A stretch of DNA of 64,000 bases. Origin: Candidatus Latescibacterota bacterium (lineage in GTDB: Bacteria > Latescibacterota > UBA2968). Positions within the stretch are counted from its first letter, which is position 1. Each line of letters starts with the position of its first letter. The notes beneath the pieces are model-generated. The model had not been told where the DNA came from and ran no database searches. It was given only the letters and a program-made list of their open reading frames with translations. The stretch is from the NCBI GenBank assembly GCA_965205975.1, contig OZ242195.1:3200001-3264000 (forward strand), read 5' to 3'. Of the stretch, positions 57,078 to 63,674 are shown piece by piece. The position numbers and the translations under genes are program-made.

Positions 57078-58388
57078 CTATGGATGCAACCTGTTGGGCG
57101 TGCGGGACAAAAAGGTCGTCTCGCGCACAGAGGACAAGTCGAGCATAACCATGAGCAGGCGCGACAGGCCAAAACCAAATCCCCCGTGCGGAGGACATCC
57201 GTACTTAAAAAAATCGAGATAAAACTGGATAACCTCTAAATCCAGCCCCTTCTCTCTCGCCTGCGTCCTCAGAACATCGGGACGGTGTTCGCGTTGCGCC
57301 CCTGTGGTAATTTCCACACCGCGATAGAGCAGGTCAAAACTCCTGGTCAACTCAGGATATTCTGGATGACGCATATGGTAAAATGGCCGCACAGACACCG
57401 GGTAGTCTATCACAAAGACATAATCGCATCCCCGGGTCTTGCGGATATATTCACCCAGCAGACGCTCGCCCTTTGGATCGAGATCGCCTTCCCGCTCTGG
57501 CGCGTGGCCCTGTTCGGACAACACCGCCAATGCCTCGGCCATCGCGATCCGCGGAAAAGGCAGCGCTGGCACCGCGAGTTCAACATCGTAATTTTCGGCA
57601 ATCGCGTCACCGTATGTCTTTCCCGCACAGCATAAATGACATGCTGGAGCCATTGCTTCTTCAAATGCCATCACATCCTCGTGACTATCAATCCATGCGA
57701 TCTCGACATCCACACTGGTAAACTCCGTCGTATGGCGCGAAGTAAATGAGGGATCGGCGCGAAAAACGGGCGCAATCTCAAACACGCGATCAAAACCAGA
57801 CGCCATCGCCATCTGTTTGTAAAACTGGGGCGATTGCGCCAGATAGGCCGTAGAATTGAAATACGGCAGCGCAAACAACTCAGCCCCCGATTCACTGGCA
57901 GTACCCATCAGTTTTGGGGAGTGGATTTCGATAAAATGATTCCGCATCCAGTACTCGCGCATCGCCATTTCAACAGCAGTCTGTATCTCAAAAATCAACC
58001 GATTGCTCGGAACGCGAAGATCGAGATGTCGCCAATCCAGCCGATGATCTATACCCGATACATTTTCGGAAAACGGATCCAGAGGCAACGGCGATTCAGC
58101 TACATTGACGACACTCAGGCCCTCAAGCTGAATCTCAACACCCCCCAGACGAACACTGGGATTTTCTACAACACGTCCACTTATGGATATCGCCGATTCT
58201 CGCGTAAGAGCCGAAACCCGCTCAGCCAACGCCCCTGTCTTTTCGTGAACAACCTGTACACTTCCCGTGCGATTTCTCAAAATGAGAAACTGGACATGCT
58301 TTTGGTCGCGCAGGGCATGCACCCATCCCTGAAGGGTAACGGTTTGGCCGATATATTTGGACAGTTCAGATATTGCAATGTATTTCAT
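57078..58388 (-). CDS. aspS: Archaeal-type non-discriminating aspartyl-tRNA(Asp/Asn) synthetase
   Basis: 436 aa, no GAD insertion; OB-fold GWVH..RD, LAQSPQFYKQ, FRA...RH..EF, GAQREH, PPHGGFGFGLSR, RLHP. Confidence 0.9.
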   Translation of the reverse strand: MKYIAISELSKYIGQTVTLQGWVHALRDQKHVQFLILRNRTGSVQVVHEKTGALAERVSALTRESAISISGRVVENPSVRLGGVEIQLEGLSVVNVAESPLPLDPFSENVSGIDHRLDWRHLDLRVPSNRLIFEIQTAVEMAMREYWMRNHFIEIHSPKLMGTASESGAELFALPYFNSTAYLAQSPQFYKQMAMASGFDRVFEIAPVFRADPSFTSRHTTEFTSVDVEIAWIDSHEDVMAFEEAMAPACHLCCAGKTYGDAIAENYDVELAVPALPFPRIAMAEALAVLSEQGHAPEREGDLDPKGERLLGEYIRKTRGCDYVFVIDYPVSVRPFYHMRHPEYPELTRSFDLLYRGVEITTGAQREHRPDVLRTQAREKGLDLEVIQFYLDFFKYGCPPHGGFGFGLSRLLMVMLDLSSVRETTFLSRTPNRLHP

Positions 58389-58492: not shown

Positions 58493-58528
58493 AAAAAAAG
58501 CCCGTTGTCGAAAAATACGACAACGGGC
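58493..58528 (-). terminator. Attenuator terminator upstream of aspS
   Basis: GCCCGTTGTCG-TATTTTT-CGACAACGGGC-T7, perfect 11-bp stem. Confidence 0.9.
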
Positions 58529-58557
58529 ACTATACTCTAATACTGGCACAAAACGAC

Positions 58558-58656
58558 CTATGCCGGTCCAGCCCGTCGCCGGATCGGATTATTATCGTCA
58601 TTATTATTGCCAGTAAACTGAGCGATTTGGAAATAGCGTATATGCATGGTATTCAT
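58558..58656 (-). CDS. Asn/Asp-rich leader peptide (32 aa) of aspS
   Basis: Manual translation MNTMHIRYFQIAQFTGNNNDDNNPIRRRAGPA*; below the ORF-track length cutoff. Confidence 0.8.
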   Translation of the reverse strand: MNTMHIRYFQIAQFTGNNNDDNNPIRRRAGPA

Positions 58657-58771: not shown

Positions 58772-59506
58772 TTAAACTTTTCTCCCGCCAAAAACAGCGA
58801 GTTCAAACAGCTTGAAATAACAATCTACATCTGAAAAACCAATAGCTCTGAGCCATTCGCATTGATCTTCAACAGACGCGAGAATATTCGCCTGTTTATC
58901 ATCGCGATAATAATAAGCCCGCGCGATTTCATCGCGAGATGCATTTGGATCTCGCTGCGTCACAGAATCGTAAAGCGCGTCAATAAAGCGATCTGCAAAA
59001 CGCGACTCAACCCACTTCGACGGAGAGCGGACATGCTCGACATTGACAAACACGCCATTGGGAGACAGCAGATCAAAAATCTCGCCATAAACCTCGCGCT
59101 TGCGTTCATCGCTCTGATGATGAATTGAAAAACCCGATACAATCGCATCATAAGGCGCGTCATCTGCAACCAGACTGAGCCAATCGGACGTCGCATAATC
59201 CCCAATAACAAAACGATGCTGTGACGCCGTTCCCCCAAACCGCTTCCGCGCAGCCTCAATCATAGCCTCAGAAAAATCCACAAACACACCGCGTGCATCC
59301 GGGTGGTATTCAATAACCGCAGCACCGAGTATGCCATCCCCACACCCCAGATCCAGAACAGTATTGACCCTGTGATCATCCGCATTGATCACCCGACACA
59401 TAACGGCAATCTGCTCATCGGACAGCGGAATTGCCTGCCGAATATTTTTCAAATATTTCTGCGCCAGATCCCGCGCCTGCCAGGCAGTGTCTTTGCGTTT
59501 GCTCAT
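58772..59506 (-). CDS. Class I SAM-dependent methyltransferase
   Basis: VLDLGCGDG, YDAIVSGFSIHH. Confidence 0.9.
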   Translation of the reverse strand: MSKRKDTAWQARDLAQKYLKNIRQAIPLSDEQIAVMCRVINADDHRVNTVLDLGCGDGILGAAVIEYHPDARGVFVDFSEAMIEAARKRFGGTASQHRFVIGDYATSDWLSLVADDAPYDAIVSGFSIHHQSDERKREVYGEIFDLLSPNGVFVNVEHVRSPSKWVESRFADRFIDALYDSVTQRDPNASRDEIARAYYYRDDKQANILASVEDQCEWLRAIGFSDVDCYFKLFELAVFGGRKV

Positions 59507-59584
59507 ATCAAGTAGTTATGGTAAAACAAAATAACGGGCGAGGCATGCCTCGCCCCTACAGTTGTTCACACTTCCCCAGCCTGT

Positions 59585-61165
59585 TCAATACCCCACTGCC
59601 AGACCATCCTTGCGAGGATCGGAAGCCGCGCAATAACCGTCATCCAATTTATAAATAAGCTGCCCCCCGCCATATCCAATAGCCTGCGGAACTTGGATAT
59701 CGTGCCCGCGGGCGCGAAGATCGTCCAGCACGCCGGCATCCACGCCCGGTTCAATCCCCACACTCAAACCCCCAAAAACCTGCCATCGGGGCGCATCGCA
59801 CGCAGCCTGCGGATTTTGACCATAAGCAAAAATCCGGATCATCATCTGCGCGTGACCTTGCGGCTGCATATGCCCTCCCATAACGCCGAAAGCCATCACC
59901 GGTTGGCCCTCTCGGGTCGCAAACGCCGGAATAATCGTATGATACGGTCGCTTGCCCCCATCCACGCGATTGGGATGGCCCTCCGTCAGAACAAAACCCG
60001 CGCCCCGGTTCTGCATACTAATACCCGTATCCGGAATCACAATCCCAGATCCAAAACCCATATAATTGGACTGAATAAACGAAACCATCATCCCATCTTC
60101 ATCCGCAGCCGTGAGATAAACCGTATCGCCACGCGGCATGCCAAAAGTGGGCATCCCCGCCTTTTTCAGATCAATTAATCTCGCGCGCTGAGATAGATAA
60201 TCCGGATCGAGCAACTGCGCGAACTCAACATCCCGCGTATTCGGATCAGACACGTACCTGTGCGTATCCGCATACGCCAACTTCATCGCCTCAATCTGCA
60301 GATGTAAGCTATCCGCCGAATCAACCGCATACCCGGACAAATCCCAATTCTCCAATATGCCCAGTGCAATAAGCGCCGCAATACCCTGACCATTTGGCGG
60401 AATTTCGTGCAGCGTGTAATCCCCGAAATCCATCGTCATTGTATCCACCCAATCCGCCCGATGCTCCGCCAGATCTTCTTCTGTCATCGCACCGCCCGTA
60501 CTCCTTGCATGCGCCGCGATCTTCTCTGCCAGATCACCCGAATAAAAAGCCTCTCCTCTCGTCTCCGCAATCCGCCCAAGCGTACGCGCCTGTGCGCTAC
60601 ACACAAATTTTTCGCCAATTTTCGGCGCGCGACCCAAAGGTGCAAAAGTCGCCATCCAATCGGGCATATCGCCGTAATTATACACAGCCTGTGCCCAGCT
60701 ATGTCCCGTAATAGGCGAAACCACAAAACCATTGCGAGCATAGTGAATCGCGGGTTCAAACAACGCCTCAAACGGCAACACGCCAAACCGCTCTGAAAGT
60801 GCGGCCCACGCCGAAACACAGCCGGGCACAGTCACGGCATCCCAACCCTGCTGGGGCATTTGAGCATGCGCGGCAAACAACTCGGGCGACCACGCTTTTG
60901 GGGAACGTCCCGATGCGTTGAGACCATATATTTGTTCACCATCCCACAAAATGCAAAACGCATCGCTACCTATACCATTCATATTGGGTTCAACAACCGT
61001 AAGCACCATCGCTGTCGCCAGAGCCGCATCTGCGGCATTGCCACCTTTGAGCAACATCTGCAACCCAGCCTGCGCAGCCAGCGGTTGAGAAGTCGCAACC
61101 ACATTGCGCGCCATAACGGGCATGCGTTGTGAAGCATACGGAAAAGACCAGGACAATTCGGGCAT
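59585..61165 (-). CDS. ggt: Gamma-glutamyltransferase family protein
   Basis: GGNAADAA, GIGSDAF, DTVY catalytic Thr, GVMGG-x-MQPQGH. Confidence 0.9.
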   Translation of the reverse strand: MPELSWSFPYASQRMPVMARNVVATSQPLAAQAGLQMLLKGGNAADAALATAMVLTVVEPNMNGIGSDAFCILWDGEQIYGLNASGRSPKAWSPELFAAHAQMPQQGWDAVTVPGCVSAWAALSERFGVLPFEALFEPAIHYARNGFVVSPITGHSWAQAVYNYGDMPDWMATFAPLGRAPKIGEKFVCSAQARTLGRIAETRGEAFYSGDLAEKIAAHARSTGGAMTEEDLAEHRADWVDTMTMDFGDYTLHEIPPNGQGIAALIALGILENWDLSGYAVDSADSLHLQIEAMKLAYADTHRYVSDPNTRDVEFAQLLDPDYLSQRARLIDLKKAGMPTFGMPRGDTVYLTAADEDGMMVSFIQSNYMGFGSGIVIPDTGISMQNRGAGFVLTEGHPNRVDGGKRPYHTIIPAFATREGQPVMAFGVMGGHMQPQGHAQMMIRIFAYGQNPQAACDAPRWQVFGGLSVGIEPGVDAGVLDDLRARGHDIQVPQAIGYGGGQLIYKLDDGYCAASDPRKDGLAVGY

Positions 61166-61183: not shown

Positions 61184-61645
61184 TCAGTTCAAAGTAATTT
61201 CTTTTTTAACATCATTCATCAAATCATCGCCATCAACAGATTCGCGCAGAGGCTCTGTAAAATTCAACCGATACCCATTGGGATCCATAACAATAACCTC
61301 GCGCGCATTCCACGGGCGATCGTGCGGACCGGAAATCTGGACATTGCCATCGCGCCGCACCCGTTTGGCAATCGCGTCAACCGACTCGCGCAACACCGTA
61401 AAATTGAGCGTAACACCCGCGCCCCGGGTGCTTGAAATCAAAACATTTGGCCCCTCCTCCATCAGAATCAAATCCGCATGAGGTGCCCACCGCAAATGCG
61501 ACATAATCGGATCGCCATTCGCACCCGGCATCTGTGAAATTAGAGAAAAACCGAGCGCATCGCAATACCATCGCGTAGATATGTTGAGATCGTGAACCAT
61601 CAAAGTTGTATAGGACGGCATCTGGTAGTCGAAATCGGATTCCAC
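61184..61645 (-). CDS. VOC/glyoxalase/bleomycin-resistance family protein
   Basis: L-x-V-x-D...WY...LGF; P-x-DRPWNARE...DPNGYRL. Confidence 0.85.
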   Translation of the reverse strand: MESDFDYQMPSYTTLMVHDLNISTRWYCDALGFSLISQMPGANGDPIMSHLRWAPHADLILMEEGPNVLISSTRGAGVTLNFTVLRESVDAIAKRVRRDGNVQISGPHDRPWNAREVIVMDPNGYRLNFTEPLRESVDGDDLMNDVKKEITLN

Positions 61646-61687
61646 CTCGCATGTCCTTTCTCCCCAAAGGGGTAGATAGCCACCAAC

Positions 61688-61720
61688 AAAAAAACCCGCC
61701 GAAGATGCTTCGGCGGGTTC
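61688..61720 (-). terminator. Intrinsic terminator (putative attenuator) upstream of the VOC gene
   Basis: GAACCCGCCGAAG-CAT-CTTCGGCGGGTT then T run. Confidence 0.85.
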
Positions 61721-61749
61721 GTTTTGTAAGACTATTATGTACTTTAAGT

Positions 61750-61932
61750 CTATCGTCTCATTTTGAACCCGCCAATAATATTTTTGTCATTACCCGTGAA
61801 AACCGCGAGATTAATGCCACCATCCGGGCACACATGGCCAGTGGTACGGACAAATGACATCTGCACGGATGCACTGATAGCGCAGTTATCCATCATTTGC
61901 TGGGTATTATTCTGGTGGGTTACAAAAATCAT
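61750..61932 (-). CDS. Small ORF (60 aa), putative leader peptide
   Basis: Lies between a promoter and a terminator; its last codons carry an antiterminator arm. Confidence 0.5.
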   Translation of the reverse strand: MIFVTHQNNTQQMMDNCAISASVQMSFVRTTGHVCPDGGINLAVFTGNDKNIIGGFKMRR

Positions 61933-61973
61933 GTTACTCTCACTATATCTGCGAACAGAACTGAACGGTGCAG

Positions 61974-62002
61974 AAGATATATCGGGGACACAGTAAAGTC
62001 AA
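61974..62002 (-). promoter_or_regulatory. Sigma70-like promoter
   Basis: TTGACT-N17-TATCTT, about 40 nt upstream of ATG 61932. Confidence 0.6.
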
Positions 62003-62799: not shown

Positions 62800-63047
62800 A
62801 TTTACCTTTTGTTGAAATGTTGAAAACTAATTAAAACCACTCTTCGCGTGTGGATCAAATTCACACCTGTTGTGAAAACACCACATGAAAGCGCGGTTTT
62901 AGCGGAAATTGTATTCAGTATAGGAAAAAATGCAATTTTTATGCCAATAAAAAAGCGCGACGGGAAAAAACCCACCGCGCTTATGCGATCAAATGGCAAA
63001 GCAGGGCGAGGCATGCCTCGCCCCTACAAACGTTGTGCCGTGATACG

Positions 63048-63674
63048 CTACATCTCTGATGACTCTTCACTTTGCTCGGACTTCTCCTCCGTCTCAGATT
63101 CCTTTTTCATCTGATCGCGATCTCCCCCACGGCGACCGCGAAACCAGCCGCGACCTCTGAACCGGGGACCATCGCCATCTCTGAAACCCGGACCACGGCC
63201 TCTGAACCCAGGTCCCCCACGGCCCCTGAAACCCGGACCACCGCGCCCGCGAAACCCCAGGCGTCCACCTCGCCGTCTCTCACCGAGCTTCTCCTTTTGT
63301 TCAGCCGTCAGCAAATTTTTAACATCCATACTGTGCTGAATCTCGCGCGCCATAATTTTGCCCTGCGCCGTCGTCACCGCATCGACCTTAGTCTGAATAT
63401 CTGAAGCCGATGGATTGTCCTGCTTCCGAATCTCACCCAAATCGATCCGCGCCTTTTGATGTGCCGCACGTAAATCAATCATCGCCTTTTGATGGGCAGA
63501 ACGCAGATCAGACATCTTTTCCTTCTGCTCATCCGTCAGTTCCAGCGCCGCCAGACCACCGCGCATACCGCGACGTTTGGCCTTTTGGGCGTCTGCATGT
63601 TTTACAAAAGCGACACTTCCAATAATTCCAATCACAAAAACACCGATAACTGCGTAGATAATTTTGCGTTTCAT
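63048..63674 (-). CDS. Spy/CpxP-family (LTXXQ) periplasmic protein with RG-rich tail
   Basis: Signal peptide; LELTDEQ and LLTAEQ; GPGFRGRG repeats. Confidence 0.82.
   Translation of the reverse strand: MKRKIIYAVIGVFVIGIIGSVAFVKHADAQKAKRRGMRGGLAALELTDEQKEKMSDLRSAHQKAMIDLRAAHQKARIDLGEIRKQDNPSASDIQTKVDAVTTAQGKIMAREIQHSMDVKNLLTAEQKEKLGERRRGGRLGFRGRGGPGFRGRGGPGFRGRGPGFRDGDGPRFRGRGWFRGRRGGDRDQMKKESETEEKSEQSEESSEM

What the first reader, a model, noticed from the sequence alone, without database searches (positions are those of the whole stretch)
61688..62002. Second attenuator-like unit: promoter, 60-aa leader, antiterminator and terminator ahead of VOC and ggt
Seen: a TTGACT-17-TATCTT promoter, then a 60-aa ORF ending ...AVFTGNDKNIIGGFKMRR*, then 29 nt later a strong terminator, then the VOC gene and ggt. 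The ORF's GGF codons (GGCGGGUUC, 61765-61773) are a perfect 9-nt complement of the terminator's 5' arm (GAACCCGCC, 61712-61720). An AGACU/AGUCU helix lies between them. The geometry matches the aspS leader: a ribosome at the stop masks the antiterminator, and one stalled upstream frees it. There is no single-amino-acid run, so the signal is unknown. Inference: ligand- or antibiotic-induced stalling; K-M-R fits the R/K-x-R/K macrolide arrest pattern, and VOC proteins include drug-binding members.
Basis: partly seen in the sequence, partly recalled or inferred. Interest (0 to 1): 0.78.

Follow-up and report, generated by a model that had tools for sequence, protein, structure and literature searches.

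The report
Ribosome-controlled switch before detox operon
A short reading frame followed by a switchable stop hairpin sits, in all close relatives examined, in front of pump-like and drug-modifying-like genes, and likely lets an uncultured bacterium turn those genes on when its ribosomes slow down, a known kind of control not tied to the macrolide motif first proposed.

Summary
The anatomy is real. Promoter, 54-81-codon leader ORF, antiterminator strand and terminator 22-33 nt after the stop are kept in 25 of 25 Ca. Latescibacterota genomes with this VOC gene (three genera). The complement is the longest among 458 terminator-like hairpins of this genome. A third strand at codons 3-7 likely acts as anti-antiterminator. 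The peptide is not conserved (19-38% identity in divergent copies). K-M-R occurs in 17 of 25, arose by a frameshift, and a ribosome stalled there would cover the antiterminator, so the macrolide-motif idea fails. The leader is not VOC-specific: it heads a variable operon of MFS pumps, VOC, GNAT, ggt and methyltransferase. Same-geometry leaders precede aspS, leuA and glnS with cognate codon runs; one without a run precedes an AAC(3)/GNAT/VOC cluster. Best reading: a bmrB/whiB7-like ribosome-mediated attenuator sensing general translation slowing (attenuator about 0.88; that signal about 0.6). Asn/Asp sensing remains a rival; descent from the aspS leaders is suggestive, not significant. Inducer untested. 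The scan had not noted this on other DNA; it noted the neighbouring aspS leader. New member of a known kind.

The parts
61974..62002 (-). sigma70-type promoter, TTGACT-17-TATCTT (predicted start about 61967)
   Evidence: same two hexamers (17 or 18 nt apart) in 25 of 25 relatives, kept although the upstream gene is displaced or different in 11 of 21 same-genus genomes
61937..61941 (-). weak Shine-Dalgarno-like GAGAG of the leader ORF
   Evidence: sequence; purine-rich patch before the start in the relatives; use inferred
61750..61932 (-). leader ORF (uORF), 60 codons; open frame kept, peptide variable
61905..61928 (-). predicted anti-antiterminator strand (core 61921-61912, codons 4-7), pairs with the antiterminator strand
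   Evidence: moderate support, not significant per sequence
61765..61775 (-). antiterminator 5' strand (codons 53-56), complementary to the terminator's 5' arm
61727..61760 (-). inner helix of the antiterminator, spanning the stop codon (two possible registers)
   Evidence: not kept in all relatives
61688..61720 (-). intrinsic terminator, 13-bp hairpin plus U tract
   Evidence: nearly invariant in 25 relatives
61184..61645 (-). VOC-fold protein (PF00903), first gene after the terminator in this genus
59585..61165 (-). gamma-glutamyltransferase-family protein, closest solved relative 2NLZ 'cephalosporin acylase'
58772..59506 (-). class I SAM methyltransferase, likely third gene of the operon
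   Evidence: joined to ggt in one RNA-library contig of a relative
58493..58647 (-). neighbouring Asn/Asp-rich leader and terminator before the spare non-discriminating aspS (comparison, separate unit)

Best explanation
This is likely a ribosome-mediated transcription attenuator that would turn on a likely detoxification operon whenever translation of its 60-codon leader slows, whatever the cause. Shown in sequence: promoter, leader ORF, three complementary strands and a terminator, all conserved, with a variable peptide. Inferred mechanism: transcription starts near 61967; the strand at codons 53-56 can pair either with the strand at codons 4-7 or with the terminator's 5' arm. A ribosome that keeps pace runs over codons 50-59 and pauses at the stop just as the terminator arm emerges, so the hairpin forms and transcription ends near 61688 (OFF). 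A ribosome held anywhere from about codon 4 to codon 48 blocks the first strand and leaves the antiterminator free, so polymerase reads into VOC, ggt and the methyltransferase, and in relatives into MFS pumps and a GNAT (ON). The long leader without control codons gives many chances to stall, so the likely inducers are ribosome-targeting antibiotics and, secondarily, amino-acid shortage. With no ribosome at all, the first strand would trap the antiterminator kinetically (OFF), but this step is uncertain.
For: Conservation in 25 of 25 genomes of three genera plus G073, L113, L115. Antiterminator and terminator within 1.2 kcal/mol; longest complement of 458 hairpins. Frame open in all 25 while the other frames carry stops in 49 of 50 cases; chance of an open frame from composition 0.02-0.11 per leader. 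Silent sites frozen where strands pair: pS 0 at codons 2-10 and 0.06 at the 3' end against 0.24 in the middle (17 close genomes). Peptide weakly constrained: dN/dS 0.36-0.67 against 0.08-0.16 for VOC. No amino acid enriched more than 1.13-fold in all 10 representative leaders. Stop stays 22-33 nt before the terminator although frame and length change. First-strand pairing P at least 0.78 in 10 of 14 ribosome-free leaders, at most 0.03 in all 14 with a ribosome at codon 8; two compensatory cells, 6 of 500 shuffles. Genes behind the leader: MFS1, VOC, GNAT, ggt, MFS2, methyltransferase in changing subsets; best NCBIfam matches of the pumps are tetracycline efflux families, far below cut-off. Same-geometry leaders with cognate runs before aspS, a leuA-like gene and glnS, and one without a run before MOSC, PhzF, AAC(3), GNAT, VOC and three methyltransferases in G042. 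One RNA-library contig covers almost only the leader at depth 40 against 8.8 for VOC-ggt (run X4; weak).
Against: No inducer was tested. No gene behind this leader passes a resistance-family cut-off. The antiterminator:terminator pairs are conserved but show no compensatory change (313-500 of 500 shuffles as high). With the ribosome at the stop the antiterminator still forms in 9 of 14 models, so the OFF state needs steric or kinetic effects I could not model. The first strand is not better than shuffles in 8 of 9 single sequences (27-160 of 200), is absent in 3 of 14 folds, and loses to the terminator arm at equilibrium. Asn is twice as frequent as expected (43 against 20.2, related sequences). 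In runs X1 and X3 single contigs span the terminator. Most of the 25 genomes are close kin: about six independent lineages.
Confidence: 0.6

Rival explanations
1. Same attenuator, but tuned to Asn/Asp-tRNA shortage (or an AspRS/AsnRS inhibitor), like the neighbouring aspS leader; here N-D-K-N at codons 48-51 would be the control codons.
For: N48, D49, N51 lie 6, 5 and 3 codons before the antiterminator, where the Asn run ends in aspS leaders; both window leaders contain F-T-G-N; Asn 43 against 20.2 expected; a spare non-discriminating aspS follows the operon in 11 of 14 close-clade loci (L031-L044); a G-x-V-R/C-P motif followed by Asn-containing residues is seen in both leader types.
Against: The N-D-K-N patch is missing in the 8 divergent leaders; Asn is at or below background in two of 10; aspS has its own leader and was not found in 7 of 20 same-genus genomes that keep this leader; the operon has no Asn/Asp synthesis gene; the genome has its own AsnRS and GlnRS.
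Confidence: 0.16
2. Attenuator whose peptide arrests the ribosome with a specific small molecule (TnaC-like), for example a substrate of the ggt or VOC protein, through the mid-leader G-H-V-R/C-P motif.
For: The motif recurs with synonymous variation in g1-close, g5, g6, G073, L113 and G058; mild frame-specific constraint in the 17 close genomes (15 synonymous to 25 other variants, against 6:34 and 7:28 in the other frames).
Against: Motif degraded in the 4 divergent g1 leaders; the frame effect vanishes with all 21 g1 genomes (18:68, 12:74, 14:67); its distance to start and stop varies.
Confidence: 0.11
3. A small protein gene with an ordinary, leaky terminator; the complement is incidental and the operon is read through at a fixed rate or from the upstream DUF3047 transcript.
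For: dN/dS below 1; no covariation in the antiterminator helix; contigs spanning DUF3047, leader and VOC in RNA libraries X1 and X3.
Against: Peptide identity falls to 19-38% and the C-terminus changes frame while the paired nucleotides stay; no Pfam match; rank 1 of 458 for the complement; same geometry in leaders with cognate codon runs.
Confidence: 0.08
4. One reading: macrolides stall the ribosome at K-M-R (+X+ motif) and this frees the antiterminator.
For: K-M-R fits the Arg/Lys-X-Arg/Lys consensus (PMC13410324, passage seen) and is present in all 17 close genomes.
Against: Absent in 8 of 25; created by a frame change at the 3' end; lies 3' of the antiterminator, so a stall there covers it. 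Macrolide induction through other sites is not excluded: the same passage names XDK and XP, and the leader has N-D-K (48-50, borderline position) and C-P (35-36).
Confidence: 0.03

Closest known systems
bmrB-bmrCD attenuator of Bacillus subtilis (PMC4191407; discussion part 1 and passages read)
   Same: Leader ORF of similar size (162 bp) with predicted anti-antiterminator, antiterminator and terminator, ahead of efflux genes; no single control amino acid; induced by several ribosome-targeting drugs.
   Different: In bmrB the terminator lies inside the ORF and all three structures are in its 3' part; here the terminator lies 22-33 nt after the stop and the first strand is at the start. No sequence relation tested. 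Different cargo (ABC pump there).
whiB7/wblC uORF attenuator of Actinobacteria (PMC10274678 and PMC11550727, passages read; the primary paper doi 10.1111/mmi.14834 was not held)
   Same: Long uORF that varies in length and sequence between species, followed by an intrinsic terminator; efficient translation terminates, slowed translation antiterminates; responds to antibiotics and to starvation for many amino acids. The WblC regulon holds MFS pumps, GNATs, methyltransferases and spare aminoacyl-tRNA synthetases (PMC7157823, passages read), the gene classes found here.
   Different: There the leader controls a transcription factor with positive feedback and is Ala-rich; here it controls the effector operon directly and no residue is universally enriched.
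vmlR attenuator of B. subtilis (PMC9226507, passages read)
   Same: Anti-antiterminator overlapping the start of the uORF; a hairpin next to the downstream Shine-Dalgarno.
   Different: uORF is three codons and senses initiation-stage drugs; here 54-81 codons that also run over the antiterminator.
Classical amino-acid attenuators (trpL, hisL, thrL; recalled) and the Asn/Asp, Leu and Gln leaders seen here in Latescibacterota
   Same: 1:2, 2:3, 3:4 pairing logic; the local leaders share the antiterminator in the last codons and a stop about 20-30 nt before the terminator.
   Different: No run of control codons; downstream genes do not make or charge an amino acid.

Membership tests
Antibiotic-responsive uORF transcription attenuators (bmrB, vmlR, whiB7/wblC type) | Translatable uORF and intrinsic terminator between promoter and first gene | tested here: met
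   25 of 25; translation itself not shown
Antibiotic-responsive uORF transcription attenuators (bmrB, vmlR, whiB7/wblC type) | Antiterminator exclusive with the terminator and overlapping the uORF | tested here: met
   conserved, no covariation
Antibiotic-responsive uORF transcription attenuators (bmrB, vmlR, whiB7/wblC type) | Anti-antiterminator (bmrB and vmlR) | tested here: inconclusive
   10 of 14 folds, 2 compensatory cells, not significant per sequence
Antibiotic-responsive uORF transcription attenuators (bmrB, vmlR, whiB7/wblC type) | Downstream genes are resistance or detoxification genes | tested here: inconclusive
   MFS, VOC, GNAT, ggt, methyltransferase classes but none above a resistance-family cut-off; AAC(3) only behind the related leader in G042
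Antibiotic-responsive uORF transcription attenuators (bmrB, vmlR, whiB7/wblC type) | Read-through induced by ribosome-targeting drugs and dependent on uORF translation | not testable with these tools
   needs a reporter or 3'-end sequencing
Classical amino-acid attenuators (trpL/hisL/thrL type) | Run of cognate control codons | tested here: not met
   no residue above 1.13-fold in all 10 representatives; Asn 2-fold pooled
Classical amino-acid attenuators (trpL/hisL/thrL type) | Downstream genes make, import or charge that amino acid | tested here: not met
   the following aspS has its own leader
Macrolide arrest leaders (+X+ motif) | Conserved Arg/Lys-X-Arg/Lys placed so that a stall frees the activating structure | tested here: not met
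   17 of 25; position covers the antiterminator
Asn/Asp leaders of non-discriminating aspS in Latescibacterota | Sequence homology of the leader ORF | tested here: inconclusive
   peptide profile E 14-32, ranks 34-72 of 69,829; DNA profile E 2.5, rank 2 of 53 hits, nothing in the reverse search
Rfam cis-regulatory families (riboswitches, T-box, described leaders) | Covariance-model score above the gathering threshold | tested here: not met
   best His_leader 23.5 bits against 49, terminator hairpin only
Stand-alone small protein family | Family match and protein-level conservation | tested here: not met
   no Pfam match at E 0.1; one invariant column in 25; the peptide was not searched in the large protein databases

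The most novel reading that the evidence does not exclude
The leader descends from the Asn/Asp-sensing aspS leaders of the same class and lost its control codons step by step (Asn run in aspS leaders, partial in g5, gone in divergent g1 and in the second G042 copy), giving a visible evolutionary series from an amino-acid sensor to a general translation-stress or antibiotic sensor, with both forms sitting side by side in one genome.
Probability: 0.25. Interest if true: 0.68.

Novelty: new member of a known kind. Interest (0 to 1): 0.42.

Why it matters
It extends bmrB/whiB7-like control to an uncultured phylum, and the leader marks a set of uncharacterised genes (a VOC subfamily, two MFS pumps, a GNAT, an acylase-like ggt, a methyltransferase) as candidates for defence against translation inhibitors; the RNA libraries that hold the region best are sponge metatranscriptomes. 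The natural series of leaders with one geometry and different codon content (Asn/Asp, Leu, Gln, none) is a ready test set for how attenuators change what they sense.

Tried and rejected
Rfam: nothing at threshold. Other frames of the leader as the real peptide (a W-W-containing frame and an I/L/V-rich frame seen by eye): rejected, those frames carry stops and the divergent leaders keep only frame 0. Gln, Cys, His or Thr as control residue: not universal (Cys 0-1 in g5/g6). Homology to aspS leaders: not significant. Covariation of antiterminator with terminator: none. The G001 row and the G049a row used a wrongly placed core and were dropped; G001 was redone. Pattern search: 15 matches beyond the 25 VOC loci; 13 were read, 7 are leaders and 6 are gene-end terminators or opposite-strand hits; 2 were not read. 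RNA contigs: X2 has a gap at 61672-61746 over the terminator, which may be an assembly effect and is not used; contigs cannot give ends or levels; only 4 of 18 RNA runs were laid. The ESM Atlas gave no answer for the peptide, so language-model look-alikes are untested. VOC homologue search found 20 proteins, only two with source names. Paper searches: 'Latescibacterota + attenuation + leader peptide' listed no paper with the phylum name among 10 shown; 'attenuator, leader peptide, asparagine, non-discriminating, aspartyl-tRNA synthetase' gave 0; subscription papers are not covered. PMC12218461 (abstract only) describes a different uORF mechanism and was not used. Earlier-findings look-ups by words and by relatives gave nothing.

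Full report
Observation. The antiterminator helix is 11 bp with G-U pairs and folds at -23.8 kcal/mol, the terminator at -22.6. Of 458 terminator-like hairpins found by my script in the whole genome, this one has the longest perfect complement 15-80 nt upstream. Rfam has nothing at threshold.

Organism and conservation. Titles of close relatives name Ca. Latescibacterota. The region matched 20 of 20 same-genus genomes and 22 of 30 in the family, none of 30 outside it. The VOC protein was found in 25 of 132 genomes of the class, all in this family, in three genera (one copy, G030, is a fragment). In all 25 I found the promoter, a leader ORF of 54-81 codons starting at the same alignment column, the antiterminator strand and the terminator 22-33 nt after the stop (for G015 and G030 I chose the homologous start by hand, and G015 has a 190-nt insertion after the promoter). 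The promoter travels with the leader: the upstream DUF3047 gene is adjacent in 10 of 21 same-genus genomes and displaced or not seen in 11. Three more copies came from G073 in another family and two metagenome contigs, L113 and L115, of 7 loci returned. These genomes amount to about six independent lineages.

The ORF is kept open but its peptide is not kept. Identity to the window's peptide is 82-97% in 16 close genomes and 19-38% in the other 8; only the first residue is invariant. dN/dS is 0.36-0.67 against 0.08-0.16 for VOC. In the close clade a mild frame-specific constraint shows (15:25 synonymous to other variants, against 6:34 and 7:28), which vanishes over all 21 same-genus genomes. 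Silent sites are frozen at codons 2-10 (pS 0) and at the 3' end (0.06) but not in the middle (0.24), which points to RNA-level constraint at the two ends. The other two frames carry stops in 49 of 50 cases.

K-M-R is not the sensor. It fits the +X+ macrolide consensus (PMC13410324, one passage seen), but it occurs in 17 of 25 leaders, all in the close clade. Every divergent leader modelled reads the antiterminator in a different frame; against the divergent same-genus copies the close clade lacks 7 nt just before it, and G073 carries the M-R-R ending in an unused frame. The motif lies 3' of the antiterminator strand; a stall with the middle residue in the P site (position recalled) covers that strand and gives termination. 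Macrolide induction through other sites (N-D-K at 48-50, C-P at 35-36; XDK and XP are named in the same passage) is not excluded.

A third strand. The whole-leader fold pairs codons 2-10 with the antiterminator strand. Before the terminator arm appears, this pairing has P at least 0.78 in 10 of 14 representative leaders and at most 0.03 in all 14 when a ribosome is placed at codon 8. It shows two compensatory cells (6 of 500 shuffles). Against it: per sequence it is no better than shuffles in 8 of 9, and at equilibrium the terminator arm displaces it. The antiterminator:terminator pairs are kept in 94.5% of cells without compensatory change. In the footprint model the antiterminator forms (P at least 0.8) in all 14 with the ribosome 16 codons before the end and never with it 3-6 codons before the end (by construction); with the ribosome at the stop it still forms in 9 of 14, so the OFF state must rely on a ribosome not fitting inside the 44-nt loop and on timing, which I could not model.

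What it controls. The genes behind the leader are changing subsets of one order: MFS1, VOC, GNAT, ggt, MFS2, methyltransferase (29 loci, some of them the same genome). The first gene is MFS1 in g5 and g6, VOC in this genus (L113 keeps a remnant of MFS1 in between), and MFS2 in G073. No promoter-like site lies between terminator and VOC. The pumps' best NCBIfam matches are tetracycline-efflux families at 60-67 bits against cut-offs of 750; ggt's closest solved relative is labelled cephalosporin acylase; the VOC profile weakly matches five solved VOC proteins, some of which I recall as enediyne-binding Tnm proteins. None of this shows resistance.

Local controls for the geometry. A pattern for antiterminator plus terminator matched 36 of 168 genomes of the phylum, the reversed pattern 1. 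Of 13 extra matches read, 7 are leaders: Asn-rich ones before non-discriminating aspS (G058, G042), a Leu-rich one before a leuA-like gene (9 of 30 codons), a Gln-rich one before glnS (6 of 19 codons, read by eye), one before asd, the G073 copy, and a second G042 leader with no run before MOSC, PhzF, AAC(3), GNAT, VOC and three methyltransferases. Independently, 8 of 10 further aspS upstream regions carry clear Asn/Asp-rich leaders of the same layout, one a less clear one, one none. So this layout is the class's ordinary ribosome-mediated attenuator, and versions without a codon run sit before detoxification-type genes.

The signal. No residue is enriched in all 10 representative leaders beyond 1.13-fold; Asn is twice the expectation when pooled but at background in two. 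The close clade has N-D-K-N where aspS leaders end their run, and both leader types share a G-x-V-R/C-P motif, but profile searches in both directions are not significant. I therefore commit to general translation slowing as in bmrB (PMC4191407, discussion part 1 and passages) and whiB7 (PMC10274678, PMC11550727, passages), whose regulon has the same gene classes (PMC7157823, passages); vmlR (PMC9226507, passages) and PMC13689557 (passages) give the three-structure logic. Supplements of these papers were not read.

Expression. Four of 18 RNA runs were laid, all as contigs. In X4 one contig covers 61681-61943 at depth 40, the next VOC-ggt at 8.8, upstream pieces 2.7-3.8; in X1 and X3 single contigs span the terminator. 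Contigs give no ends or levels and may include DNA, so this is a weak hint of termination with some read-through.

Verdict. A new member of a known kind, not found in print by the searches. Interest 0.42.

Noticed in passing
L090 (G042:C1:2095000-2111500), minus strand: Two leaders of this layout 6.6 kb apart: an Asn-rich one before non-discriminating aspS, BlaI and a BlaR-like protein, and one without a run before MOSC, methyltransferases, PhzF, AAC(3), GNAT and VOC.
   Followed up: partly
L105:1-900 (G032), minus strand: Two attenuator-like units in tandem directly before aspS, each with an Asn/Asp-containing leader and its own terminator; L107 (G022) and L091 (G025, before a leuA-like gene) also show two hairpins in tandem.
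   Followed up: no
L093:1540-1700 (G082) and L091:1550-1760 (G025): Gln-rich 19-codon leader before glnS and Leu-rich 30-codon leader before a leuA-like gene: classical attenuators in this phylum.
   Followed up: partly
L099-L102 (G048, G049, G043, G047), upstream of aspS: aspS leaders whose Asn/Asp run is interspersed with His codons and which end in P-I-x-R-R-A-G-P, conserved across families; the ending resembles the SecM R-A-G-P arrest motif (recalled).
   Followed up: no
window 57640-57690, minus strand (aspS): The aspS ORF listed as 436 aa reads oddly around residues 236-248 and NCBI-type matches of relatives align 1-436; not checked for a local frameshift or assembly error.
   Followed up: no
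window 61661-61673, minus strand: Small conserved hairpin just 5' of the VOC Shine-Dalgarno sequence, with varying loop and stem letters in relatives; could add a translation-level or stability layer.
   Followed up: no
window 59530-59576 and 63010-63030: A short palindromic repeat found many times in RNA-library contigs (depth over 600); related repeats are inserted at several places around the leader in relatives, including between promoter and leader in G015.
   Followed up: no
L006, L007, L009, L015, L024, L019, L021 upstream of the promoter: The gap between DUF3047 and the promoter is a frequent insertion site for small genes that look like toxin-antitoxin pairs (read by eye, not scanned).
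   Followed up: no
window 63048-63674, minus strand: Spy/CpxP-like protein (PF13801, PF07813) with a repeated Gly/Arg-rich tail whose repeat number differs between relatives.
   Followed up: no
L053:6040-6450 (G030) and L115:3060-3500: MFS1 is internally deleted behind an intact leader in these two loci, and VOC is also reduced to a fragment in G030.
   Followed up: partly
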